Shown piece after piece: positions 2,568 through 41,695 of a stretch of DNA of 64,000 nt (position 1 is the stretch's first letter; each line of letters opens with the position of its first letter). Made by a program: the position numbers and the translations under genes. This DNA is from a virus (lineage: Duplodnaviria; Heunggongvirae; Uroviricota; Caudoviricetes). A model generated the notes under the pieces. The model did no database searches. It was not told where the DNA came from and worked only from the letters and a program-made list of their open reading frames with translations. The stretch covers positions 47,519 through 111,518 of the IMG/VR virus record IMGVR_UViG_3300015177_000008; one strand, written 5' to 3'.

Positions 2568-2741
2568 TGTTGTATCCGGTATTGAATAATCATCTCATAA
2601 AAACCATGTAGCCTGTGTGTGATATCTATGTCCCAATGAAACTGGTAAAATAAAGTATAGCAGTTCAAGATTCCTTGCGCCACCTGAATTTTCTACAGAT
2701 AATGCAAAACACATAGCAGTAAAACCTTTCGTTTATAAATT

Positions 2742-3041
2742 TTATTTTTTCCTATAAACATATAGTTCTCCATGCGCTTTCTTTCTGTCTCGGTGTATTC
2801 CCATTTCTTTTTCTATTCGTATCGTAGCTTTACGTAACTCTTTTGATGTGCTAACATCTTTGGCTGCAATGTTTTTTGGCACCGCCTGCTTCATGCAGCG
2901 GCGTATTTGTTCTCTAACATATATTCGTTGGTCTACCTGTCCTTCCTGTCGATAATCCATCAGTACTTCCTGCCAGCGAACAGCAGCCCTGCGCCATAGT
3001 CCTCTTTGCTCAAGATCTTCGGCCTTCTTGTCTCTAACCAT
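2742..3041 (-). CDS. PerC-like small transcriptional activator (putative)
   Basis: ATG at 3041 preceded by GGAGG; 99 aa basic protein with GLWRRAAVRW motif reminiscent of the PerC family. Track ORF 2742..3056 begins at an upstream TTG. Confidence 0.4.
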   Translation of the reverse strand: MVRDKKAEDLEQRGLWRRAAVRWQEVLMDYRQEGQVDQRIYVREQIRRCMKQAVPKNIAAKDVSTSKELRKATIRIEKEMGIHRDRKKAHGELYVYRKK

Positions 3042-3418
3042 TTCCCCTCCAAACAAACGTATGCTACAGATTAACTACCTAAAAATTGAGTTTAACACTA
3101 ACTCATGTAATTAATACTAATGCAAGAAAATATTCACTAATATTTTTATCTTTTAGTTATAAACTAAATTTACATGTGGCTGTTTTGCAAAATGTAGACT
3201 TCCTATATTTTTTATGAAATGATTAGGAAAATAAATTTATTTTATAGCCTTAACACTATGGTCAATACATTTCTTAACACCCAATGCCATCACGAATGAA
3301 CTAAGGAAAAGCGGAATGGCCTTTGACGTTAAAATGCTCTAACTGGAGGTTGTTCATGTGTTTTTCTCTTATCGTTTAGTTACTACATTCTTACACAAAC
3401 CAAGTAAGTGTTTACCTA

Positions 3419-5105
3419 TCATTTAACGCGTTTGAAAACGTATACGCTGACTGTGATCCCTGTGTCTTCAAACTCGTTGGTAAACGACTTCCCTCTGGCA
3501 TAAACGTAATTATCCATCGTCATCCAGTCCAGTATTGGCGCAGTGCCCGGCAATACTGCTACAAGACGCCCGCCGACTTTCAGATGCCCCAGCGCAGCCA
3601 GCGTGTGCTCTCTATGACGACCAAGCGAGTACGGCGGGTTCATAACGATTTTGTCGAACTGATAACCTGCGTTGTCCTCAGACCACTTTATGAAGTCGCA
3701 GCAAATCGTGTTCGTATACCCTTTTCCACGCAGGATATCAGCAAAGAGAGGTGCGATTTCTATGCAGGTAACATCTTCCAGATCGGCGTTAATATAGGCC
3801 AGAAGATCCCCACGTCCGGCTTGAGGCTCCAACAGCTTCTCACCAGGCTTCAATTCAGTGGCTCTTGCAACGTACTCAGCAATCAAGCGTGGGGTAGGGT
3901 AGAACTGGTGTGATTTTGTATCCGGTATTAAACCGGTAGCCACAATCGTATTTAGCGTATGGCCGATGTCATACGGGAACTGCCAGTGCTTTTTCTCCTG
4001 CACGCCGCCAATGAAGCTCAGTGTGCGCTCAAGCTCTTCCACCTGCGACTTCTGGAGAGCTGAATCAGAGAAGTACCATACTCCTTTGTCTTTGCTCAAT
4101 CGCCCGTCACGAAGCGCAGTGCGAACCGGGACGGAGATCGTCTTCTGGATTAGCCCGAACTGCTTTGGTGCCCGTGTTTTTTGGCGCTCTGCGGCATGGC
4201 GCGGGGATTGCTGCAGGCATACTGTAAGCCAGCACCTCATTCAACTTCCAGGCCACGTCAGGATGTATTTCAAAGTGAACGTTGCCGTTCTTGAACATCT
4301 TCACGCGCATCAGATTTCCATCGACGTTCATCCAGTCACCGGTCTGGCAGTCGTTTGCCCGATACGCAGCTGATAGCACCTCAGCAGTGCGGTTGATGGT
4401 AATAAATTCTTTGTGCGCGAAGAAATGAAGCAAAACACGCAGATCGTCGATATAGTCCTCTTTGCGATAGTTCACACTAACGCTGTCCCGCCAGAAATCA
4501 GAAATGCAGTCAGCGATTATCAGACGCTCGCTGAAACCGTTCGTCTTATTTGTCTTGTGCGCAGGACTCAGCGCCTTAAACAAGCCATACACGCGCTCGG
4601 AGAGATATTTGTGCCTGTCATTCAGCAAATTAAGCATCGTTGGTATGACCGTTTCTGCTTTGAACTCCGGTACACCAACGAACTCTTTAACCTTCATCTG
4701 ATAGCCGGTTCTGTCAGTTTTGATGACTTCCTGCTTGCCCTCGATAAATTGCTCACGCCACTCGTCGCGACGGGAAGCTGGCATGATCAGCAAAACGTTA
4801 GTCATATCCGTGACCTTCCTCCAGTACTCGGCCCAAATATTCTGTTTCACCCATTCCAGATCGACTTTATCCAACCAACCTCGATTTAAACGCGAGCGAT
4901 CTTCATCTGGTCGATGGTTTAGTCTCAGCAGGCGATTAATCATGTTGTGGCGTTCGTCGCCATAAACGAAGTCGTGTACCTGATACATGAAGTCGATCTC
5001 TTTCTCGCACTCGGCCACGATTTCGTGGATGACATTCATTTCCTGACGATAGTCGATAGCCGTGTTTGAGCTGGCATCGTCGATGATGGAAAGGGCTGTA
5101 TTCAT
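3419..5105 (-). pseudogene. SAM-dependent methyltransferase-like gene (NPPY motif, DUF4942-like), disrupted by a frameshift
   Basis: Two overlapping minus-strand ORFs in different frames (4107..5105 and 3419..4240). The downstream frame carries EPQAGRGDLL and IVMNPPYS motifs; the tail of the first and head of the second look like out-of-frame sequence. Confidence 0.5.
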
Positions 5106-7985: not shown

Positions 7986-8241
7986 CCGAACGGTCCTTGT
8001 TGTTTTTCTCCTTCACTAAAGGCCGTGCATTTTTCGCTTCACATGAAGAACTGGAGGTTACAATCGCCCCCACGTTCGCAACAACTGACGCTTGCTTATC
8101 TAAACGTGCCTTCAGCACCAGAACGGTAGTTTCCAATTCATCAAGACGTGACAGAAGGCGACCGCTAAATAATTCGGCCAAAATTTGACGTAAAGAACGA
8201 GGGCGTTTAGTTGCAGGAGTTAAAAAAAATTGACGTGCCAT
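7747..8241 (-). CDS. Hypothetical protein (C-terminal half possibly out of frame)
   Basis: N-terminal 85 aa look protein-like (coiled-coil); C-terminal part is low-complexity and overlaps 7734..7985. Confidence 0.35.
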   Translation of the reverse strand: MARQFFLTPATKRPRSLRQILAELFSGRLLSRLDELETTVLVLKARLDKQASVVANVGAIVTSSSSCEAKNARPLVKEKNNKDRSDGKFSKKEAETNGLRSHYSFTGDGSRSSRSEPFDAGFIHHHTFVDDNYHHSSGASCHSGWDGGGCDTSSSSSYSGSCCD

Positions 8242-31034: not shown

Positions 31035-33374
31035 TTACTCTTCTACTGACTCGGTGGGATTGTCTTTTGATCTCCGGTCGTCGATTGCCTGTAAAGCCGC
31101 AATGATTTCAGCTAGTGGCTTCTCCCGATACATCTCGACGATCTGTGATTTGGTGTATTTCTTGTCACCAATTTCTACTCGACCGCTGGCGTTCTTTGGC
31201 AGGTATCCTTCTTCCAGCATGTACTCGACGAGCGACTCGATAACGTCGAGGCCACGAGTAGGATCGAAGTAGAATTTCCAGGTGCATTTGCCATACGGTG
31301 GTGCAACTTTGTTTTTGATGCACTCTGCGCCTACGTCCTGACCGATCTTCTCTTTCCCATCCTTCATCACCGATGCACCGAGACGGATGCGCACAGAAGC
31401 GTAAAACTTCGGTGAATCGCCGCCTGGAGACGTAGTAGGGTCGCCAAACATTACACCGATTTTTGTGCGAACCTGATTCAAGAAGATGATGCAGGCGTTG
31501 TATTTGCGTGCCCACAAAGCCAGAGTGGGGAAGTTCGCACTCGTCGCACGAGCCAGCGCCGTATTGTCGTTCATGTTTAGCTGATCTTTGTCTTTGGCAG
31601 TGCCTTCAGCCATCTTTTCGAACTTCTCGGCTTTGGAGTTCGGAACCATAGACGCAAGTGAGTCAGCCACGATACAGATAGGTGCTGATTCAGGAATAAG
31701 CTCTTCATCACGTACCAATTTAAGAATTGTGCCGATCAACTCTACAGAGTCTTCGAAGGTATCAGGCTGCTTGTATACCCACTGACCGTCATCCTCATCT
31801 GCATTCAAACCATTGGCTACAGCCAGGCCAACGTCAAAACTGTTTTCATGATCGAGGAATACCGCCAGACCATCTTGTTTTTGAGCGGAGATCATCGCTG
31901 CTGTTGCAAGGAATGTGTTGTGGCTGATAATCCCGTTAGACCAGAAAGAGTGTGTTTCCGGCATCGCTACGTCGAACGTTGGTGCTTCACCTTCCTCAAT
32001 AGCCACGACTTCGTCGTAGAACAAGTTAGAGCCAATTACCGCTGCCAGTTGTGCAAACAGATGCTCGTTAAAACGATTCTTTCTGCCAATGAAGGAGACA
32101 TAGATTTCTCGCAGTTTGTCTATTCCGACACGATCGCCGCGGCCAATAACGTGGTCTACCAGAGCGTAGTCTTCACGGGTGGTCTTGGTGAGCGACTCGT
32201 AGAGTGATTTCACTAAGCCGCTGATGTGCGGAACATAGCCTGAGTAAGTGCGGTCAAAACCAATGTCCCGTTTGGTTGCCACTGATAAACGTGCCGGAGA
32301 TTCGAAACCAATCGTTGACAGAAAAAGGTCGTAATTAGAGCCACTGAATGACAGCCGGTAATATGTATTTTCATAACCCGCGACGTGTTTTTCAGAGATA
32401 GTTGACGTAATCCCCAGATTCAGGAGCATGAGGCGAATTTGCTGTAGCAGCAGCCCACTCGCGCTCACAACCTCAATGCAGCGACCATCATTGACGTGGC
32501 ATTCCAGCTCAAAGTAGCCGCGAAGGAATGCAATTTGAGCCTCGCTATTGGCGCGACGCACACTCAACGGAACCTGCTTGCCAGCAGCTTTCTCATACTC
32601 CAGACCATATTCTTTAAAAAGCAGCGAACGCACCTCTTTGCTAAACAGCACATGGTCTTCCGAGCCGTTATGTTTTCTCGTAACTGGCATCTTGTCTGAT
32701 ACCAGCGAAATGAGGCGGTAGTACTCATCCTTGATGAAAGGATCTGTGTTAGAAAAATTCACTGAATTTTCAGAGGCCACGTATCCGTCAGCAATTAAAT
32801 AGCCCATCAGTTTTGCGATATTGGCATCCAGGTGCTGATCGCCGAATTGATGTGTGCCAACCATTGAAGGAATCGTGTCGCCTACACTGATTTTTTCAGC
32901 ATGTCGCCAGACGACATTACCTAAGTCGTCAACCACACGGATTGGGTGACGGAACGTAGCCTCGATATAACCGCCTGATGCCAGCTTAATACGCTTGAAT
33001 TTGCGACGGTTGTTCCATGTCAGGTGTGAGGTCTTCTCTATCACGCCATTTTCATTGATGAGTCCAACGTTATGCTCTACATCGCGAGTAGTGCATGTCG
33101 CTTTGTACCCTTCAATCTCAAACAACTCTTTCACTGTTACCATTCCACGCTCCGTCAGCAGCATGGTGTCTGCGGTAACACATTTCCCCGCACTTGGAGG
33201 ACCGAATACTTCGACGATACGACCACATGGGAAGCCGCCATCGTAACGACCAGAAATAGCTTTGTTTAACGGTGGAAAGCCTGTATCAATCCAATGAGTT
33301 ACTTTCTGAATTTCGTCGTTGCTACCGATTTTCTTTTTCAGAGCAAGTGCCAGTGCGGATTTTCCTTTTGCCAT
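31035..33374 (-). CDS. recA: RecA-family recombinase interrupted by an intein
   Basis: Exteins GRIVEVFGPPSAGK...TFLATAAM and FLNQVRTKIGVMFGDPTTSPGGDSPKFYASVRIRLGA resemble RecA; a 422-aa insertion splits the Walker A motif. Confidence 0.8.
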   Translation of the reverse strand: MAKGKSALALALKKKIGSNDEIQKVTHWIDTGFPPLNKAISGRYDGGFPCGRIVEVFGPPSAGKCVTADTMLLTERGMVTVKELFEIEGYKATCTTRDVEHNVGLINENGVIEKTSHLTWNNRRKFKRIKLASGGYIEATFRHPIRVVDDLGNVVWRHAEKISVGDTIPSMVGTHQFGDQHLDANIAKLMGYLIADGYVASENSVNFSNTDPFIKDEYYRLISLVSDKMPVTRKHNGSEDHVLFSKEVRSLLFKEYGLEYEKAAGKQVPLSVRRANSEAQIAFLRGYFELECHVNDGRCIEVVSASGLLLQQIRLMLLNLGITSTISEKHVAGYENTYYRLSFSGSNYDLFLSTIGFESPARLSVATKRDIGFDRTYSGYVPHISGLVKSLYESLTKTTREDYALVDHVIGRGDRVGIDKLREIYVSFIGRKNRFNEHLFAQLAAVIGSNLFYDEVVAIEEGEAPTFDVAMPETHSFWSNGIISHNTFLATAAMISAQKQDGLAVFLDHENSFDVGLAVANGLNADEDDGQWVYKQPDTFEDSVELIGTILKLVRDEELIPESAPICIVADSLASMVPNSKAEKFEKMAEGTAKDKDQLNMNDNTALARATSANFPTLALWARKYNACIIFLNQVRTKIGVMFGDPTTSPGGDSPKFYASVRIRLGASVMKDGKEKIGQDVGAECIKNKVAPPYGKCTWKFYFDPTRGLDVIESLVEYMLEEGYLPKNASGRVEIGDKKYTKSQIVEMYREKPLAEIIAALQAIDDRRSKDNPTESVEE
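31917..33182 (-). mobile_element. Intein with LAGLIDADG homing-endonuclease domain inside recA
   Basis: Starts with Cys directly after GPPSAGK, ends ...SHN followed by Thr; LAGLIDADG-type blocks LMGYLIADGYV and LRGYFELECHV. Confidence 0.7.
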
Positions 33375-35793: not shown

Positions 35794-36225
35794 TCAACGG
35801 GGAGTAATAAAGCGTTCAGAGCCTAATCGCTCTAATTCAACGATGGCCATCTTTGACGCCTGAACGATCATGTCTCGGCGATGCGAAAAGGCGGCGACAG
35901 CATGTTTGTATATGTCTGCGATGTGCCGTGCTTCATCCAACTTCTGCCGTTTAGACAGATACTGTGGGTTTGTTTTAACCTTAGCGTCCAGTACAGACTC
36001 GTTGAACTTAATGCCGTTCATACTCAAGTTCTTACGCTCTGTGTCGTATAGCTTTGCTTCAACAGCTTCAAGGTTAAGTTTTGCCTCTGCGACATCTCGA
36101 TCTGCCTGCGCTAGTTTTGACCCATACTCCATTAAAAGCCGTGGCTGTTTACGCCATACTTCCTCAAGGTTGTCGCGGTCGAACTCCAGATCGGCCATGA
36201 TTTTAGAAAAAATATCAGTGTTCAC
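35794..36225 (-). CDS. Hypothetical protein
   Basis: 143 aa ORF. Confidence 0.4.
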   Translation of the reverse strand: MNTDIFSKIMADLEFDRDNLEEVWRKQPRLLMEYGSKLAQADRDVAEAKLNLEAVEAKLYDTERKNLSMNGIKFNESVLDAKVKTNPQYLSKRQKLDEARHIADIYKHAVAAFSHRRDMIVQASKMAIVELERLGSERFITPR

Positions 36226-36433
36226 TCTAATAGGTTCCTACTTATAAAATCTGTATCAATTATATCAAACAGAGAACGGGTTTATGGCGTCATGTCAACT
36301 TTGTTCAGGGGAAAATATTGAGATCACCGAAGATAATTAGTTGTCTTATTTTGGTAAGCTGTGCTGACCATCTTTAGGTCACATACATGAGATGGATGGG
36401 GGTGTGGCATGAACGGATGAAATTCAGTCGCCG

Positions 36434-36462
36434 TTGACAGATGTCAACACTGTGAATAGAAT
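36434..36462 (+). promoter_or_regulatory. Sigma70-like promoter with palindrome over the -35
   Basis: TTGACA - 17 nt - TAGAAT; the -35 sits inside the palindrome ttgacagatgtcaa; GGAGG and ATG follow at 36480. Confidence 0.5.
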
Positions 36463-36479
36463 ACTATTATCGGAGGCGA

Positions 36480-36704
36480 ATGAAGCAACATCCGAATAAG
36501 CATATTCAAGCAGCCATTGACTATGCATTAAGTAAAGGCTGGATCTGGGTAGCAGCTGGTGGTGCTGCACATTGTTTTTGCAGACTGCGATGCGGTAATC
36601 CAGAAGGTGAACACAAAACTCACCAAATGAGCGTATGGTCGACTCCGGGTAATCCCGAAAACCATGCCAAACAGATCAAACGAATGGTTGATCGTTGTAA
36701 ATGA
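36480..36704 (+). CDS. Small basic protein, possible HicA-like toxin
   Basis: 74 aa; KGW...AH...HKTH pattern loosely like HicA; first gene of a two-gene plus-strand insert. Confidence 0.3.
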   Translation: MKQHPNKHIQAAIDYALSKGWIWVAAGGAAHCFCRLRCGNPEGEHKTHQMSVWSTPGNPENHAKQIKRMVDRCK

Positions 36705-36764
36705 TTTCAAGGCGGCATTAGCCGCCTTTTGCAGAAACTGTCCAACTATCTTCAAAGGAAAACT

Positions 36765-37328
36765 ATGGCGCTTTATAACTTCACTCTGACGCTCTCAGGC
36801 GTATCGTATGAGACGGAAGGACTGGAAGACGCGCTGTACCAAAACGGCTGTGACGATGCGCTAATTTGCGCATATGGAAACTCCGTCTATGTAGAATTTG
36901 ACCGCGAAGCACAATCACTTGATGCAGCTATCGCATCTGCGGTCGACAATATTGAATCAGCCGGTATCGGTGCAATTGTTGAATCCGTCGACTCGGCTCT
37001 TGTGGGCTTAAGCGATATCGCGGAACTGACAGACCTGTCTCGCCAGGCAGTGGCGTTGCTCAAAGACGGTAAGCGCGGAAGCGGCGACTTCCCTTGCCCT
37101 GTACAACGCATAAAAGGCCAGTCTCCTCTCTGGGATTGGGCTGATGTGGCTGAATGGCTCATGAATAACGGACGACTTAAAGAGGGCGATCAAATTGTCC
37201 AAAATGCCCGAACTTTGAGTAAATGGAATCTGGCGCTTCGAAACAGCGTCTCGAAAGATTTCAACGAAATAGAGCAAATTGCGGAGAAACTGATTAAACG
37301 CCGCAAAGATATTGCGAAATGCGCATAA
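36765..37328 (+). CDS. HTH-containing protein, possible HicB-like antitoxin
   Basis: ATG at 36765 after AAGGAAAA; helix-turn-helix LSDIAELTDLSRQAVALLKDGKRG; terminator-like hairpin atgcccgccaattggcgggcat follows. Confidence 0.35.
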   Translation: MALYNFTLTLSGVSYETEGLEDALYQNGCDDALICAYGNSVYVEFDREAQSLDAAIASAVDNIESAGIGAIVESVDSALVGLSDIAELTDLSRQAVALLKDGKRGSGDFPCPVQRIKGQSPLWDWADVAEWLMNNGRLKEGDQIVQNARTLSKWNLALRNSVSKDFNEIEQIAEKLIKRRKDIAKCA

Positions 37329-37657
37329 TGATGCCCGCCAATTGGCGGGCATCTGTTCTCTGTAAAGGTGTCTGGCATCGTCTGGTTCGTTAACGTTTAC
37401 TAAACCAATGGTGACAAAAATTAGTTATCTTTGAAAAATAAAGGTTGCATGAAAAGAAGGGGTATGCGTTAATAGCATCGTTGGTTTGCAAGACAGACCT
37501 TATGTAAGCAGTTTTAGTAAAGCAGTCTCAGTTCAGTGTTATCTTCTGATTTCCCTTCTTCGTGAGTCTCCTCCTTAAGTGCCTAAGTAAGTCCCAATCT
37601 ATACAGATCAAATTCTCGCCGCACTATGTGGCTCACAAAATTAAGAAGGTAATATCT

Positions 37658-37873
37658 ATGTCTAATAAAATGACTGGTTTAGTAAAATGGTTTAACTCTG
37701 ATAAAGGCTTTGGCTTTATTTCTCCTGCTGATGGCAGTAAAGATGTTTTTGTACATTTTTCGGCAATTCAGAGTAATAATTTCCGCACTTTGGAAGAAGG
37801 CCAGCAGGTCGAATTCTCTATCGAGAATGGGGCTAAAGGCCCAGCAGCAGCAAATGTCGTTGCTCTAAGCTGA
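37658..37873 (+). CDS. Cold-shock protein, CspA family
   Basis: [38 protein letters not shown]... (RNP1/RNP2 motifs); long 5' leader of about 160 nt; track ORF starts upstream. Confidence 0.85.
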
Positions 37874-38151
37874 TTCAACGCTGATGATCCTCATTTCTAC
37901 AATAACGAAGACGGTGTAAGCCTGAGTGGATAGATTTGTAGGATTGTACAAGTTGAATAAATTAGCATGGTAAGGCCATGCTAATTAAATCGACACAACG
38001 GCCAGTTTATTCCATAAAAGTGAATTGCCCATTGTGGCGAAATGCGGGGTTGCCGCATGAATAGTCAAAGGCAGAAGCTAACTGCCGGCATGGCAAAACA
38101 AAGTGCGTAAGAGGAGTGACTTCCTCAACAAGCGCCATAATTCTTTATAAA

Positions 38152-38178
38152 CCCGCCAACAGGCGGGTTTTCTTTATT
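38152..38178 (+). terminator. Rho-independent terminator
   Basis: cccgcc aaca ggcggg followed by ttttctttatt; abuts the dnaE stop on the other strand. Confidence 0.5.
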
Positions 38179-41100
38179 ACTTATTTATTGTCTCCGCGAT
38201 ATCAGCCAGAATGGCCTCCAGTCGCTCTCCTTCTTCCGGTCGGAAGTACAGGATATTCGGGTTAAATCCGTAGAAGACGGTTGCATCAAGCTCTGGGAAG
38301 TACTCCTTACGACCAATCAGATCTGATGGTTTACTCTTATTGTTAAATAGTGCGGTTGAACGACTACCACACGTCAAAATGTAGGTTGGTCGTACAAGAT
38401 TAATTTCTTCCCGCATAAAGTCTGTGAACTGGCCTATCTCGTCTTTGGTATAGTCTTTCTCTTTGTCCTTAACCTTCTTACAAACACCCGTGACATAAAG
38501 ATCGCCCATGCGCAGATCTCCAACTGTCAGTAGTTTTGCCTTAAAGTCGTCGTATCCGTTCTCCATGAAGTAGCCGGTACGAGCGTCATTGCCGTTCGCA
38601 TTGTCCAGAATGATCATGATTTTGGGTTTAATACCAATAGTCGGGCGTATCAACTCCTCACCCAAGCCCATTTCAGCCGCCATACGTGTCATGAGTACGT
38701 TGATTTCGGCAGAACGCTTAGGATTCATTTCGAACGGACGTGATGCTTTAACAGCGTCAATGATGAGATTGCCCATCAGCTCAGCCTGGTCGCGCAGTCG
38801 TTCAGGATCAGTTGCTGGCAGACTGCCTGGCTCAATTGACGCAAAAGCCCCTACTTTATGAAGCGACTCGCGTACACGACTGTTACATGCACGCTTCTCG
38901 ACCGCTTCATCGAATTGTGCCACTGACTCGAATTTGCCACCAACTTTCTCACGCGCACGCATAATTGCCTGACAACCATTTTCAGAACAGCCTTTCACAG
39001 CAGAGAATGGCGCATACAGTGCCTGACTGCCGTCTTCGAGTGTGCGGATCTCAATTCGGTTAGATGACACATTAACGTCTGGTGGCAATACGCGAATGCC
39101 ATAGGTCAGCGCATCCTTCACCAGCCCCTGATGCTTATCCTCGCCCAGAATGGTGAGCGCAGCTGCGAAGAACTCAGCAGGGTAGTGCGTCTTTAGCCAC
39201 ATAGACTGATAACTGATTAAAGAATAAGCAACGGAGTGTGATTTATTGAACTGATAGGCTCCGTTTTTCTCAAATGCGGTCCAGATCTCCTTCGCTTTCA
39301 TCTCTGATAGCCCTGGATGTGACGCTGTAACGCGTACTGCGTTTATAGGTAGTTTTGCGCCGTGCTCAAGTGCCTCTTCGACAGTTTTCAGAGTTCCGTC
39401 TTCGCATTTAAAATGTTCCGCACGGTGAATGCGCTGTGTAGTGCCATCTTCCAGCTCAACGTCTATCCAGCCAGCTTGAGCCTGAACGATGAACTTCTCG
39501 CCCATGCTCTTCATTTTTTCCATGTTCTTCTTACCGATTGCGGAACGCACAGCGTCAGCTTCAGCCATTGTGAAGCCGGCAAGCAATCGAGTCGCGTTCA
39601 TCGTCTGTTCCTGATAGAGAATCACGCCATTTGTTTCCGCGGTAAGTTTATCAAGAACGGGGTGTAATGATTCCGGCGTCATAAAGCCTTTGGCGACAGA
39701 AACATAGTCATCCAACATGCCTGATTGAATTGGCCCCGGCCGGAAGAGCGCAGTTGTAGCGACGACCGTTTTAAAGCTCATTGGCTCAATTCCACCACCT
39801 AAATCTTTAAGCAGCTTGCGCATTGGGCCTGATTCAAGCTGGAAAACACCTTGAGTGTACCCAGCAGCAAAACCATCCAGCACCTTGCGATCTTCAAGAG
39901 AAATGGCATCAAGATTGATATCTTCACCTGTGTTCTCTTTTATGTAGCGTTTTGCACTATCGAGCAAATCGAGAGTTGCCAGGCCAAGCACGTCCAGCTT
40001 AATTAGGCCCATAGCCTCGCAGTAACGCTTGTCAAATGCGATACAACGCGCGTCACCACGGCGCTCAACCGGTGTACGTTCTGTCAGAGGAACACCTGCT
40101 ACGATCATCCCTGCCGCATGTCTACCAAAGCCACGCATAAGGCTTTGTAACTTGCAGGCTGCATTGAATGCATCAGGATATTTTGTTGCGTATTTGTCGA
40201 GACTTGCCAGTTGTTCGCGCAGTTCTTCCAATGGAAGGCTATCATCCTCAGCGTTCTTCAGTTCTTTTGATACCGCCATATCTGCGGACTCCACACCATA
40301 AATACGAGCGGTGTCACGTAGTGCAGAGGCTGCGCCCAGGTAGGTGAAGTTCGGAATGCCTGCAACGTAATCTTCGCCGTAGCGTTCATTCAGATACTCG
40401 ATCACCTCATGGCGACGTGCCTGGCTGAAGTCCAAATCCGCATCTGGCAAGTCGAGACGCTCAGGGTTGATGAAACGCTCAAACAGAAGACCGTGACGGA
40501 TTGGGTCGACGTTGGTTATGCCTATGCACCACGCCACCAGAGAACCGGCAGAGGAACCACGACCAGGCCCAACGGGAATGCCAGTTTCACGACTATGATT
40601 CATCAGATCGCGCACCATCAGGAAGTAACCACAGAATCCCAGGCGAGTCAGCGTGTCCATTTCGTACTTTAGCCGCTCAACATAAACCCTGTTCTCAGAA
40701 GCAGGTGGTGTGTATCCAAACTCTTTTGTGGTAAGACGTTTACGCAGCCCTGCAACAGCCAGTTTCATAAGCGTTGCAGGCTCGTCGTCTGCCATCTTTG
40801 GCAGTGCTGGCGGCAATTCATGCCAGCGCCATGTGCAGGCATCGATAATGGTATCCTGCGTTGTTGAGGCCATTGCAGCTGTTACCGGCACATCCATGCG
40901 AACGGAGAAGGCTTTAAGCGCCTCAAGGAGATGGCGGCGACCATTGACGGCGTTATCTCGCTGGTGGGGGATACGCAGACGATGCGGCTGGTCGATTTTG
41001 ATGTTGTTCGTAACCATGTGCGCAATGTCTTTAATGTCTGCATCGTCGATCGATTCGTAATAAGCGGGATAGAACGCCACTGGCTCTATTTTCAATGCGC

Positions 41101-41695
41101 TGGCGACTTTCATCGCCCGGACGTTAATCTGGTCGTAGAATGGGGTAGGGTGCGGATAAACCACACTATAGAAGTTGTCTTTTCCACCCGCTGTAATCAG
41201 TGTGCTTATGATTTTTGCAAAATCGTTGCGTTGGAACACGCTACCGATGTCGGAAGTAAGCAGGATGATGTTGCCTTTGGCATATGTAGAAACCAACTGT
41301 TCGAGCGAGAGACGCGGTACAAAGTAGAACTGTTCTCGTGTGTTGGCCGCCGTCATTAGTTCGCAGATGTCGCGATATCCTTGCTCATTTTTAATTAGAG
41401 CGGTAAACGAGTAGTTACGTCCCCGCTCTAATGATTCCATACATCTCATAGATTCTTTAGCAAGTTTAGCCCGGTGCTCGTATGTGGGATCATCAACAAT
41501 GTTTAGTTTCACACCACAAATAACCGCCATGTCGTCACCAGCGGCACGTTGTAGTGGAATAACGCTCGCAATATTCATGCTATCTGCTGAAATTACAGCG
41601 GTGTAGCCAGCTTCTCTGGCAATCTTCACCGCGTTTTCTGCTTTTAGAGCCGACTCCCCAAGTGAGAAGTCAGTTCGAACCATCAGTGCCTTCAT
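38177..41695 (-). CDS. dnaE: DNA polymerase III alpha subunit (DnaE family)
   Basis: 1172 aa; N-terminal PHP-like region and polymerase-core motif GRGSSAGSLVAWCIGIT; start context GGTAAAAACACATG. Confidence 0.85.
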   Translation of the reverse strand: MKALMVRTDFSLGESALKAENAVKIAREAGYTAVISADSMNIASVIPLQRAAGDDMAVICGVKLNIVDDPTYEHRAKLAKESMRCMESLERGRNYSFTALIKNEQGYRDICELMTAANTREQFYFVPRLSLEQLVSTYAKGNIILLTSDIGSVFQRNDFAKIISTLITAGGKDNFYSVVYPHPTPFYDQINVRAMKVASALKIEPVAFYPAYYESIDDADIKDIAHMVTNNIKIDQPHRLRIPHQRDNAVNGRRHLLEALKAFSVRMDVPVTAAMASTTQDTIIDACTWRWHELPPALPKMADDEPATLMKLAVAGLRKRLTTKEFGYTPPASENRVYVERLKYEMDTLTRLGFCGYFLMVRDLMNHSRETGIPVGPGRGSSAGSLVAWCIGITNVDPIRHGLLFERFINPERLDLPDADLDFSQARRHEVIEYLNERYGEDYVAGIPNFTYLGAASALRDTARIYGVESADMAVSKELKNAEDDSLPLEELREQLASLDKYATKYPDAFNAACKLQSLMRGFGRHAAGMIVAGVPLTERTPVERRGDARCIAFDKRYCEAMGLIKLDVLGLATLDLLDSAKRYIKENTGEDINLDAISLEDRKVLDGFAAGYTQGVFQLESGPMRKLLKDLGGGIEPMSFKTVVATTALFRPGPIQSGMLDDYVSVAKGFMTPESLHPVLDKLTAETNGVILYQEQTMNATRLLAGFTMAEADAVRSAIGKKNMEKMKSMGEKFIVQAQAGWIDVELEDGTTQRIHRAEHFKCEDGTLKTVEEALEHGAKLPINAVRVTASHPGLSEMKAKEIWTAFEKNGAYQFNKSHSVAYSLISYQSMWLKTHYPAEFFAAALTILGEDKHQGLVKDALTYGIRVLPPDVNVSSNRIEIRTLEDGSQALYAPFSAVKGCSENGCQAIMRAREKVGGKFESVAQFDEAVEKRACNSRVRESLHKVGAFASIEPGSLPATDPERLRDQAELMGNLIIDAVKASRPFEMNPKRSAEINVLMTRMAAEMGLGEELIRPTIGIKPKIMIILDNANGNDARTGYFMENGYDDFKAKLLTVGDLRMGDLYVTGVCKKVKDKEKDYTKDEIGQFTDFMREEINLVRPTYILTCGSRSTALFNNKSKPSDLIGRKEYFPELDATVFYGFNPNILYFRPEEGERLEAILADIAETINK

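What the first reader, a model, noticed from the sequence alone, without database searches (positions are those of the whole stretch)
36434..37328. Two-gene plus-strand insert with an autoregulation-type promoter: possible HicAB-like toxin-antitoxin pair
A strong sigma70-like promoter whose -35 lies inside the palindrome ttgacagatgtcaa drives a 74-aa basic protein followed by a 188-aa HTH protein, and a perfect hairpin terminator follows. Order and sizes fit a toxin-first TA pair, but sequence similarity to HicA/HicB is weak, so it may be a different or new family.
Basis: inference. Interest (0 to 1): 0.5.

Follow-up and report, generated by a model that had tools for sequence, protein, structure and literature searches.

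The report
Autoregulated toxin-antitoxin-like phage-plasmid gene pair
A self-contained, self-repressing two-gene cassette carried as an accessory insert by an E. coli phage-plasmid looks like a toxin-antitoxin or phage-defence module. It is not a true HicAB pair: it belongs to an uncharacterised family already listed as the untested defence candidate PDC-M06.

Summary
A near-consensus sigma-70 promoter, a 74-aa basic protein (A), a 187-aa HTH protein (B) and a perfect terminator lie at 36433-37353. They sit on the + strand between minus-strand replication genes of an SSU5-like phage-plasmid (99.7% identical to E. coli phage Cyrano).

The pair is a real insert, because related phage-plasmids have only about 125 bp at this site. 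The palindrome is really GTTGAC-N4-GTCAAC. It is perfect in 45 of 55 homologous loci whose B has the HTH domain and absent from all 25 loci whose B lacks it, so it is almost certainly B's operator and the promoter is autorepressed.

A→B is conserved in all 80 species examined, in unrelated neighbourhoods. Only B's acidic N-terminal domain always travels with A. A is inactivated in six genomes with B intact, never the reverse.

Verdict: a toxin-antitoxin-like module of a new, possibly zinc-binding, HicA-fold family. Toxicity is unproven.

The parts
36433..36448 (.). Operator: palindrome GTTGAC-AGAT-GTCAAC whose left arm overlaps the -35 hexamer. Proposed binding site of a dimer of B.
   Evidence: Sequence. 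It is the only perfect match in the window. GTTKAC-N4-GTMAAC is perfect in 45/55 loci whose B has the HTH and scores >=11/12 in 49/55. None of the 25 loci without an HTH reaches 10/12, and none of 4000 shuffles reaches 12. Its position is -67 to -32 from the A start codon.
36434..36462 (+). Sigma-70-type promoter: -35 TTGACA (36434-36439), 17-nt spacer, -10 TAGAAT (36457-36462).
   Evidence: 11/12 matches. The same arrangement is conserved in homologous loci. The genes are transcribed in the Cyrano lysogen at 30x and 14x above local background (PMC9928086).
36480..36704 (+). Gene A: 74 aa, basic (pI 9.5), rich in Cys and His. PDC-M06A / phrog_5923. Predicted topology alpha-beta-beta-(short alpha)-beta-alpha. 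Proposed effector or toxin.
36709..36728 (+). Intergenic stem-loop AAGGCGGC-ATTA-GCCGCCTT followed by TT: a terminator-like attenuator or mRNA-stabilising hairpin directly after the A stop codon.
   Evidence: -14.8 kcal/mol, z = -3.45. A stem of >=6 bp at the same place occurs in 22/25 homologous loci with a spacer of >=40 nt, with different sequences.
36765..37328 (+). Gene B: 187 aa. PDC-M06B / phrog_2620. It has an acidic ferredoxin-like N-domain (aa 1-75, 36765-36989), an AlpA/excisionase-type winged HTH (about aa 78-135, 36996-37169) and a C-terminal helical hairpin (aa 143-186, 37191-37322). Proposed neutraliser of A and autorepressor.
37330..37353 (+). Intrinsic-terminator-like hairpin ending the operon (10-bp perfect stem, 4-nt loop, T-rich tail TGTTCTCTGT).

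Best explanation
The module is an autonomous, negatively autoregulated two-gene cassette of the toxin-antitoxin type, carried as an accessory gene pair (a moron) by an SSU5-like phage-plasmid.

Proposed mechanism:
- Transcription starts at the sigma-70 promoter at 36434-36462.
- A dimer of B binds the palindrome GTTGAC-N4-GTCAAC through its AlpA-type winged helix. The palindrome overlaps the -35 hexamer, so binding shuts off the promoter.
- A is the effector. It is a small, basic, probably zinc-stabilised protein with a HicA-like alpha-beta-beta-beta-alpha fold, and most plausibly binds or cleaves RNA.
- B's acidic ferredoxin-like N-domain binds and neutralises A.
- A conserved stem-loop after gene A sets the A:B transcript ratio.

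For the phage-plasmid the likely payoff is stable inheritance (killing of cells that lose it), exclusion of other phages by abortive infection (the PDC-M06 reading), or both.

Shown: the anatomy; strict A-B linkage; covariation of the operator with the HTH domain; expression in a lysogen (from the literature); variable presence among related phage-plasmids.

Inferred: B binding the operator; A-B contact; A toxicity; RNA as the target; zinc binding.
For: 1. Both proteins match the two components of PADLOC candidate PDC-M06 (E = 1e-19 and 1e-32) in the right order. SSU5's own pair and planctomycete pairs match it too.
2. A followed by B on the same strand is found in all 80 species loci examined. 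B comes in three architectures (about 185, 148 and 84-93 aa), and only its N-terminal ~70 residues are always present. That is the modular neutralising-domain plus swappable DNA-binding-domain design of antitoxins.
3. The 16-bp palindrome is perfect in 45/55 loci with an HTH-bearing B, absent (<10/12) from 25/25 loci without one, and reaches 12/12 in 0/4000 shuffles. It sits at a fixed distance and overlaps the -35, while its 4-nt centre varies freely. The window holds a single perfect copy, so regulation is local.
4. Immediate neighbours in 54 loci (107 proteins) are unrelated housekeeping genes, so the cassette moves as a unit. Related phage-plasmids lack it at the same site. It is present in 110 of the 236 E. 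coli genomes that carry an SSU5-like dnaE.
5. A has pI 9.5 (+6) and the B N-domain pI 4.05 (-12.5), so their charges are complementary.
6. A is broken by nonsense or frameshift mutations in 6/80 genomes with B intact, and never the reverse. If hits fell in proportion to gene length this would have a probability of about 0.001 (my arithmetic).
7. One MAG encodes A and a B-like N-domain as a single ORF.
9. Both genes are transcribed in the Cyrano lysogen at 30x and 14x above prophage background (PMC9928086).
Against: - No toxicity or neutralisation data exist for any family member. PDC-M06 is one of 145 explicitly untested candidates.
- The proposed toxin gene is upstream, followed by a terminator-like hairpin, and has about twice the transcript level of B. 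That is unusual if B must be in excess.
- Neighbours in species genomes are rarely defence genes.
- A ferredoxin/ACT/RAM-like N-domain is also typical of ligand-sensing regulators.
- Three of the six A-pseudogenes are from Providencia. Two have frameshifts at nearly the same codon and may be one event. Three are from MAGs and could be assembly errors.
Confidence: 0.55

Rival explanations
1. It is a bona fide HicA/HicB type II toxin-antitoxin pair, as annotated in phage Cyrano. A is a HicA mRNA interferase that uses the conserved His, and B is a HicB antitoxin.
Confidence: 0.1
2. It is not a toxin system but a small regulatory cassette. B is an autoregulated transcription factor whose ferredoxin/ACT-like N-domain senses a ligand or the A protein. 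A is a harmless small zinc protein, such as an RNA- or nucleic-acid-binding accessory factor, whose level B controls.
For: B's N-domain resembles ACT, RAM and HMA regulatory or metal-binding domains. A's Cys/His pattern suggests metal binding. A's transcript exceeds B's, and a conserved hairpin separates the genes. A has no sequence-level similarity to any proven toxin. A-pseudogenes with intact B would also be expected if A is simply dispensable.
Against: Loci whose B lacks any DNA-binding domain still keep A plus the N-domain strictly paired, so the conserved core is an A-B protein pair, not a regulator and its target. The distribution is patchy, mobile and independent of context. Members are embedded in BREX, DISARM or type I RM loci, which is how PDC-M06 was defined. 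The charge complementarity is extreme. The window holds only one operator copy.
Confidence: 0.2
3. The polarity is reversed. A, being upstream and more highly expressed, is the antitoxin or inhibitor. B's conserved N-domain, with invariant D31 and R47, is the toxic or enzymatic effector.
For: The usual type II order is antitoxin first and in excess. The A transcript is about twice that of B, and a terminator-like hairpin follows A. The B N-domain has invariant D31, F6, F45 and R47.
Against: A is inactivated in six genomes while B stays intact, which should be lethal if B were the toxin. The DNA-binding and autoregulatory domain, a hallmark of antitoxins, is on B. At long range A is more conserved than B: 49-59% against 33-43% identity in Planctomycetes.
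Confidence: 0.05
4. It is a dedicated anti-phage defence system (PDC-M06) that does not work by toxin-antitoxin logic. For example, A could directly target an invading phage component while B acts only as a regulator.
For: Both proteins match the PDC-M06 models. Those models were built from cassettes embedded in known defence systems. The pair is expressed in the lysogen as a moron.
Against: The candidate is untested. Defence genes are rare among neighbours here: about 5 of 107. The short B forms without an HTH argue that B does more than regulate. TA-type and defence readings are not mutually exclusive.
Confidence: 0.1

Closest known systems
PDC-M06 (PADLOC-DB v2 phage defence candidate; cassette CAS_00046, FAM_01986>>FAM_01364; Payne et al., bioRxiv 10.1101/2024.01.29.577857)
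   Same: Both proteins match the PDC-M06A and PDC-M06B HMMs (E = 1e-19 and 1e-32). They are adjacent, on the same strand, in the order A then B.
   Different: PDC-M06 is only a computational candidate. It was defined by embedding in BREX, DISARM or type I RM loci and has not been tested. Here the cassette sits in a phage-plasmid replication module, not in a defence locus. No mechanism, fold or operator had been described for it.
HicAB type II toxin-antitoxin systems (Pfam PF07927 HicA_toxin; PDB 6hpb, 6g26, 4p78, 5yrz, 1whz)
   Same: The order is toxin-first, with a small basic first protein of about 60-75 aa. The predicted topology is alpha-beta-beta-beta-alpha, with a conserved His at the start of strand 2 preceded by G-x-S. 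The partner has an N-terminal binding domain fused to a DNA-binding domain. The promoter is autoregulated.
AlpA / excisionase-type (MerR-superfamily) winged-helix regulators, e.g. PDB 8c3t (GIsul2 excisionase), BldC 6amk, TerS HTH domains
   Different: There is no recombinase partner or att site. B carries extra N- and C-terminal domains. The inferred target is an inverted repeat of two 6-bp half-sites 10 bp apart at its own promoter. There is no Pfam HTH_17 hit.
Other toxin-first TA operons with HTH antitoxins (MqsRA, HigBA); comparison from general knowledge
   Same: The toxin gene lies upstream. The antitoxin carries the DNA-binding domain and represses a promoter through a palindrome that overlaps the promoter elements.
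   Different: No homology was detected. The conserved terminator-like stem-loop between the two genes, and the higher transcript level of the putative toxin, are not typical features.

Membership tests
HicA toxin (PF07927) | Significant match to the HicA_toxin profile, or to solved HicA sequences | tested here: not met
   Pfam gives no HicA hit at E<=1. PDB profile searches with 38- and 96-sequence alignments find no HicA. NCBIfam gives none.
HicA toxin (PF07927) | dsRBD-like alpha1-beta1-beta2-beta3-alpha2 fold | tested here: inconclusive
HicA toxin (PF07927) | Catalytic His in the G-S-H motif at the start of strand 2 | tested here: inconclusive
   H31 is present in 93/96 family members and is preceded by G-x-S. 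hhalign (probability 27-34%) places H31 opposite the His next to the mutated position 24 of 4c26.
HicA toxin (PF07927) | Ribosome-independent mRNA cleavage, with growth arrest when expressed alone | not testable with these tools
   This needs expression and RNase assays.
HicB antitoxin (PF15919 and relatives) | N-terminal HicB (partial RNase H-like) domain that binds HicA | tested here: not met
HicB antitoxin (PF15919 and relatives) | C-terminal RHH or Xre-type HTH DNA-binding domain | tested here: not met
PDC-M06 (PADLOC candidate system) | Both component HMMs matched by adjacent same-strand genes in the order A>>B | tested here: met
   PDC-M06A E = 1.2e-19 and PDC-M06B E = 1.3e-32, with the genes 60 nt apart. 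The cassette definition is FAM_01986>>FAM_01364.
PDC-M06 (PADLOC candidate system) | Anti-phage activity | not testable with these tools
   The authors list the 145 PDCs as untested. No paper in the library mentions PDC-M06.
Type II toxin-antitoxin module (generic) | Strictly linked two-gene operon that moves as a unit between unrelated contexts | tested here: met
   A downstream B-type ORF was found wherever the contig allows (77 of 80 species loci; the other three are at contig ends or a fusion). The 107 immediate neighbours share no family in more than 3 members. Presence among SSU5-like phage-plasmids is variable.
Type II toxin-antitoxin module (generic) | Autoregulation through an operator at the promoter, bound by the antitoxin's DNA-binding domain | tested here: met
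   Shown by comparison only. The palindrome overlapping the -35 is perfect in 45/55 loci with an HTH, never occurs in the 25 loci without one, and reaches 12/12 in 0/4000 shuffles. Binding itself was not tested.
Type II toxin-antitoxin module (generic) | The toxin is harmful alone and is neutralised by direct binding of the antitoxin | not testable with these tools
   The support is indirect only: six A-pseudogenes with intact B and none the other way; charge complementarity; one A-B fusion ORF.
AlpA/excisionase winged-helix regulators (PF05930/PF12728) | Profile match and fold of the DNA-binding domain | tested here: inconclusive

The most novel reading that the evidence does not exclude
A and B would found a new toxin-antitoxin or abortive-infection family. 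A would be a zinc-stabilised effector with a HicA-like fold, an invariant H4/H31 pair and a C38-C/H48-C73 metal site. It would be held in check by a previously undescribed antitoxin domain, an acidic ferredoxin-like module that occurs alone or fused to swappable DNA-binding domains. A conserved intergenic stem-loop would tune the toxin:antitoxin ratio, or might itself be a target of A. In phage-plasmids the module would act both as an addiction system and as a barrier to superinfecting phages.
Probability: 0.3. Interest if true: 0.6.

Novelty: new variant of a known kind. Interest (0 to 1): 0.45.

Why it matters
The family is widespread: 704 clusters at 50% identity, found from Enterobacterales to Planctomycetota. 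It has no Pfam model, no solved structure and no experimental study. Its only names are an untested PADLOC candidate label and a HicAB annotation that the evidence here does not support.

It is transcribed in lysogens of a Crohn's-disease-associated E. coli strain, and it is present in about half of the SSU5-like phage-plasmids of E. coli. These elements also spread resistance genes, so a maintenance or exclusion module on them affects their persistence.

This analysis provides concrete handles for experiments:
- a defined 16-bp operator;
- domain boundaries for B;
- candidate catalytic and metal-binding residues in A;
- natural A-null alleles.

It also corrects the public annotation: B is not HicB.

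Tried and rejected
- Pfam and NCBIfam scans of both proteins gave no meaningful hits. RuBisCO_small, CagE and mycosin appeared at E 0.01-0.2 and are chance matches.
- PDB profile searches for A (two depths) and B found only chance hits: lectins, thioredoxin glutathione reductase and vaginolysin.
- Foldseek of the A model against the PDB found nothing significant. The afdb50 library was unavailable.
- hhalign of A against an E. coli-type HicA profile gave a non-colinear 19-column match between the A N-terminus and the HicA C-terminal helix. I do not count it as homology. A global hhalign gives a plausible colinear overlay but a probability of only 0.8%.
- A copper-chaperone (HMA) reading of B's N-domain was rejected because it has no CxxC motif. 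Its conserved motif is G-C-D-D with an invariant Asp.
- The neighbourhood was tested for enrichment of defence genes or integrases, and none was found.
- Literature searches for PDC-M06, protein accessions and locus tags returned only the Cyrano paper.
- A second B-like hit in L042 is only an orphan 79-aa HTH fragment and is uninformative.
- Rfam finds no known RNA in the A-B operon.

Full report
WHERE THE WINDOW COMES FROM. The 1.4 kb around the finding is 99.7% identical to Escherichia phage Cyrano (pLF82, OV696614). It is 100% identical to about 108-kb plasmids of many E. coli strains. All 110 matching places in 5,426 complete E. coli genomes are on plasmids. These are SSU5-like phage-plasmids. 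The flanking genes are a replication and recombination module on the minus strand: RecA, a 5'-3' exonuclease, a gp32-like SSB, a UvsY-like protein (35794-36225) and DnaE (38177-41695).

THE OBSERVATION.
- The promoter is TTGACA-17-TAGAAT at 36434-36462, with 11 of 12 consensus positions.
- Gene A is 36480-36704. It encodes 74 aa with pI 9.5, behind a GGAGG Shine-Dalgarno.
- Gene B is 36765-37328 and encodes 187 aa.
- A perfect 10-bp hairpin at 37330-37353 folds at -21.8 kcal/mol, z = -5.7.
- The palindrome is wider than reported: GTTGAC-AGAT-GTCAAC at 36433-36448.
- A further stem-loop lies directly after the A stop codon: AAGGCGGC-ATTA-GCCGCCTT at 36709-36728, -14.8 kcal/mol, z = -3.45.

'Insert' is also correct. 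In phage PhiR41_1 the UvsY-like gene and dnaE are about 125 bp apart, against 1951 bp here. SSU5 has a diverged copy of the pair (57% and 71% identity) at the same site, but with a different third gene. An SSU5-like dnaE is found in 236 E. coli genomes and this cassette in 110. The site is therefore a variable accessory-gene slot. The + strand island also holds a separate cspG-like gene, described under THINGS SEEN IN PASSING.

WHAT THE PROTEINS ARE BY SEQUENCE. Pfam and NCBIfam give nothing for either protein; in particular there is no HicA_toxin or HicB hit. PHROGs places A in phrog_5923 (unknown function) and B in phrog_2620 ('excisionase and transcriptional regulator'). PADLOC matches A to PDC-M06A (E = 1e-19) and B to PDC-M06B (E = 1e-32).

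PDC-M06 is cassette CAS_00046 (FAM_01986>>FAM_01364). It is one of 145 'phage defence candidates' that Payne et al. derived from genes embedded in BREX, DISARM or type I RM loci, and the authors state explicitly that these are untested. No paper in the library mentions PDC-M06 or these proteins, with one exception. Misson et al. 2023 (PMC9928086) annotate them as HicA/HicB. They show by RNA-seq of the LF82 lysogen that both are 'morons', transcribed at 30x (A) and 14x (B) above prophage background.

The family is large. A profile of A finds 704 clusters at 50% identity in 1.84 billion representatives. It occurs in Enterobacterales, Pasteurellaceae, Moraxellaceae, Neisseriaceae, Alteromonadaceae, Planctomycetota, Verrucomicrobiota, Chloroflexota and others.

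COMPARATIVE ANATOMY. I fetched 80 species loci with a relative of A.
- Linkage. A B-type ORF follows A on the same strand wherever the contig allows.
- Architectures of B. There are three. About 185 aa: N-domain, winged helix and C-terminal helices (Enterobacterales). About 148 aa: N-domain plus HTH (Pasteurellaceae, Acinetobacter, Neisseria). About 84-93 aa: N-domain only (Planctomycetes, Cardiobacteriaceae). Only residues 1 to about 70 of B are universal, with F6, G28, D31, F45, R47, A55 and A59 nearly invariant.
- Neighbours. The 107 immediate neighbours from 54 loci share no Pfam family in more than three members, and only about five are PADLOC defence proteins. The cassette is autonomous and mobile.
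- Charges. They are complementary: A is +6 and the B N-domain is -12.5 at pH 7.
- Asymmetric decay. A is broken in six genomes. There are nonsense codons in L018, L045 and L081 and frameshifts in L057, L059 and L065. B is intact in all six, and the reverse is never seen. If hits fell in proportion to gene length this would have a probability of about 0.001 by my arithmetic. The caveats are that two Providencia frameshifts may be a single event and that three cases come from MAGs.
- Fusion. One Rhodothermales MAG (L075) encodes A and a B-like N-domain as a single 158-aa ORF.

THE OPERATOR. The motif GTTKAC-N4-GTMAAC lies 32-67 nt (median 51) upstream of the A start codon.
- It is perfect in 45 of the 55 loci whose B has the DNA-binding domain, and matches at least 11 of 12 positions in 49.
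- None of the 25 loci whose B lacks that domain reaches even 10 of 12.
- None of 4000 shuffled upstream regions reaches 12.
- The arms are conserved across families (GTTGAC/GTCAAC, or GTTTAC/GTAAAC in Pasteurellaceae, Neisseria and Moraxellaceae), while the 4-nt centre varies freely.
- The left arm contains the -35 hexamer.
- The 64-kb window holds only this one perfect copy.

This is as strong as comparative evidence gets. The palindrome is the binding site of a B dimer, with two half-sites one helical turn apart, and occupancy should block RNA polymerase. That is classical negative autoregulation. Binding itself remains an inference.

THE INTERGENIC STEM-LOOP. In 22 of the 25 loci where A and B are at least 40 nt apart, a stem of 6-17 bp follows the A stop codon. 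The sequences differ, the median folding z-score is -2.4, and the stem is often followed by a T-run. Where the genes abut or overlap by 4 nt, as in Acinetobacter and Pasteurellaceae, there is no stem-loop. It is therefore a lineage-specific tuning element, probably a partial terminator or a 3' stabiliser of an A-only transcript. This fits the 2:1 A:B transcript ratio in LF82. It is an odd feature for a toxin-first TA operon, and I count it against the simple TA model.

STRUCTURE OF A. The AF2 model (pLDDT 88.7) has the order helix 7-18, strands 22-25 and 32-37, a short helix 43-47, strand 49-53 and helix 59-72.
- Foldseek finds nothing.
- hhalign of the A family against five PDB HicA sequences gives a colinear local match of A 11-35 to HicA 5-29, covering helix 1, strand 1 and the G-S-x-H strand. 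The probability is only 27-34%. A global alignment has no statistical support.
- As a control, an E. coli-type HicA profile also fails to find the other PDB HicA structures. Sequence negatives are therefore weak evidence inside this superfamily.

In 96 diverse members, H4 and P56 are invariant. W21, H31, C38, T55, A63 and C73 are at least 97% conserved. Position 48 is Cys in 74 members and His in 17. That Cys/His exchange suggests a structural metal site (C38, C/H48, C73 plus a His) with no counterpart in the five PDB HicA sequences aligned here. The metal site is an inference: I could not inspect the model coordinates.

INTERPRETATION. The best-supported reading is an autoregulated, toxin-antitoxin-type cassette. 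A would be the effector, with a HicA-like fold, probably RNA-directed and possibly zinc-dependent. B's acidic N-domain would be its neutraliser, and B's winged helix would be the autorepressor. My confidence is about 0.85 for autoregulation, about 0.55 for TA-type logic and about 0.3 for a HicA-like RNase activity.

For a phage-plasmid present at about 5 copies per cell, post-segregational stabilisation and exclusion of other phages are both plausible payoffs. The PDC-M06 label favours the latter but has not been tested.

The rivals are, in order: a non-toxic regulatory cassette (0.2); a genuine HicAB pair (0.1); a defence system that does not use TA logic (0.1); and reversed polarity (0.05). 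The last is contradicted by the A-pseudogenes.

NOVELTY AND SCORE. The cassette is already catalogued (PDC-M06, PHROGs 5923 and 2620) and already annotated, inaccurately, as HicAB. It is not a discovery of a new object. What is new here is:
- the operator;
- the domain dissection of B;
- the finding that B is not HicB;
- the Cys/His signature of A;
- the asymmetric gene decay;
- the conserved intergenic hairpin.

I rate it a new variant of a known kind, namely TA-like or defence two-gene modules, with moderate interest (0.45).

THINGS SEEN IN PASSING.
- The cspG-like gene (CDS 37658-37873) carries a full cspA-thermoregulator 5' UTR (Rfam RF01766, 185.7 bits, 37480-37898) and has its own terminator at 38149-38170.
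- The window's RecA (31035-33374, 779 aa) contains an intein with a LAGLIDADG domain. The otherwise near-identical plasmid of strain AR_0104 lacks it; its RecA gene is 1074 nt.

Noticed in passing
window 37480-37898 (CDS 37658-37873; promoter-like site 37411-37439; terminator 38149-38170): A cspG-like cold-shock gene lies directly downstream of the pair. It has a complete cspA thermoregulator 5' UTR (Rfam RF01766, 185.7 bits against a gathering score of 78), on the same + strand island but as a separate transcription unit. Similar csp genes are morons in lambdoid prophages such as Tritos.
   Followed up: partly
window 31035-33374 (- strand): The phage-plasmid RecA is 779 aa because it carries an intein with a LAGLIDADG homing-endonuclease domain (Pfam Intein_splicing and LAGLIDADG_3). 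Phage Cyrano has the same 2340-nt gene. The plasmid of E. coli AR_0104, identical over the studied 1.4 kb, has an intein-free 1074-nt recA.
   Followed up: partly
window 36226-38176, compared with L084 (PhiR41_1) 2727-2851 and L083 (SSU5) 2729-4319: The gap between the UvsY-like gene and dnaE is a variable accessory-gene slot in SSU5-like phage-plasmids. It is about 125 bp and empty in PhiR41_1 and CMS-2020a. It holds A-B plus cspG here, and A-B plus an unrelated minus-strand gene (SSU5_053) in SSU5.
   Followed up: partly
L075 5011-5490 (Rhodothermales MAG, JBFGTT010000222.1): A and a divergent B-like N-domain are encoded as one 158-aa ORF. This is either a natural fusion or an assembly error that removed the stop codon. 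If real, it argues for physical coupling of the two proteins.
   Followed up: partly
L018, L045, L057, L059, L065, L081 (A genes near locus position 8001-8220): Gene A carries nonsense or frameshift mutations in six species representatives, three of them Providencia isolates, while gene B is intact. The frameshifts in L057 and L065 are at almost the same codon (about 19-20).
   Followed up: yes
L082 1235-2403 (Pirellulales MAG): Two A-B pairs lie in tandem on one contig: A at 1235-1447 and 1959-2168, B at 1477-1677 and 2194-2403. This is a local duplication of the cassette.
   Followed up: no
L042 10499-10738 (Mannheimia indoligenes): An orphan 79-aa fragment that matches only the HTH part of B lies about 2 kb downstream of the complete A-B pair.
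   Followed up: partly
alignment A6 (family of A), insert between positions 38 and 48 of the window protein: About 10 of 96 family members carry an extra Cys-rich insert (C-x-C-x3-C type) in the loop between strands 2 and 3. This suggests a second metal site or a zinc-ribbon-like elaboration in some lineages.
   Followed up: no
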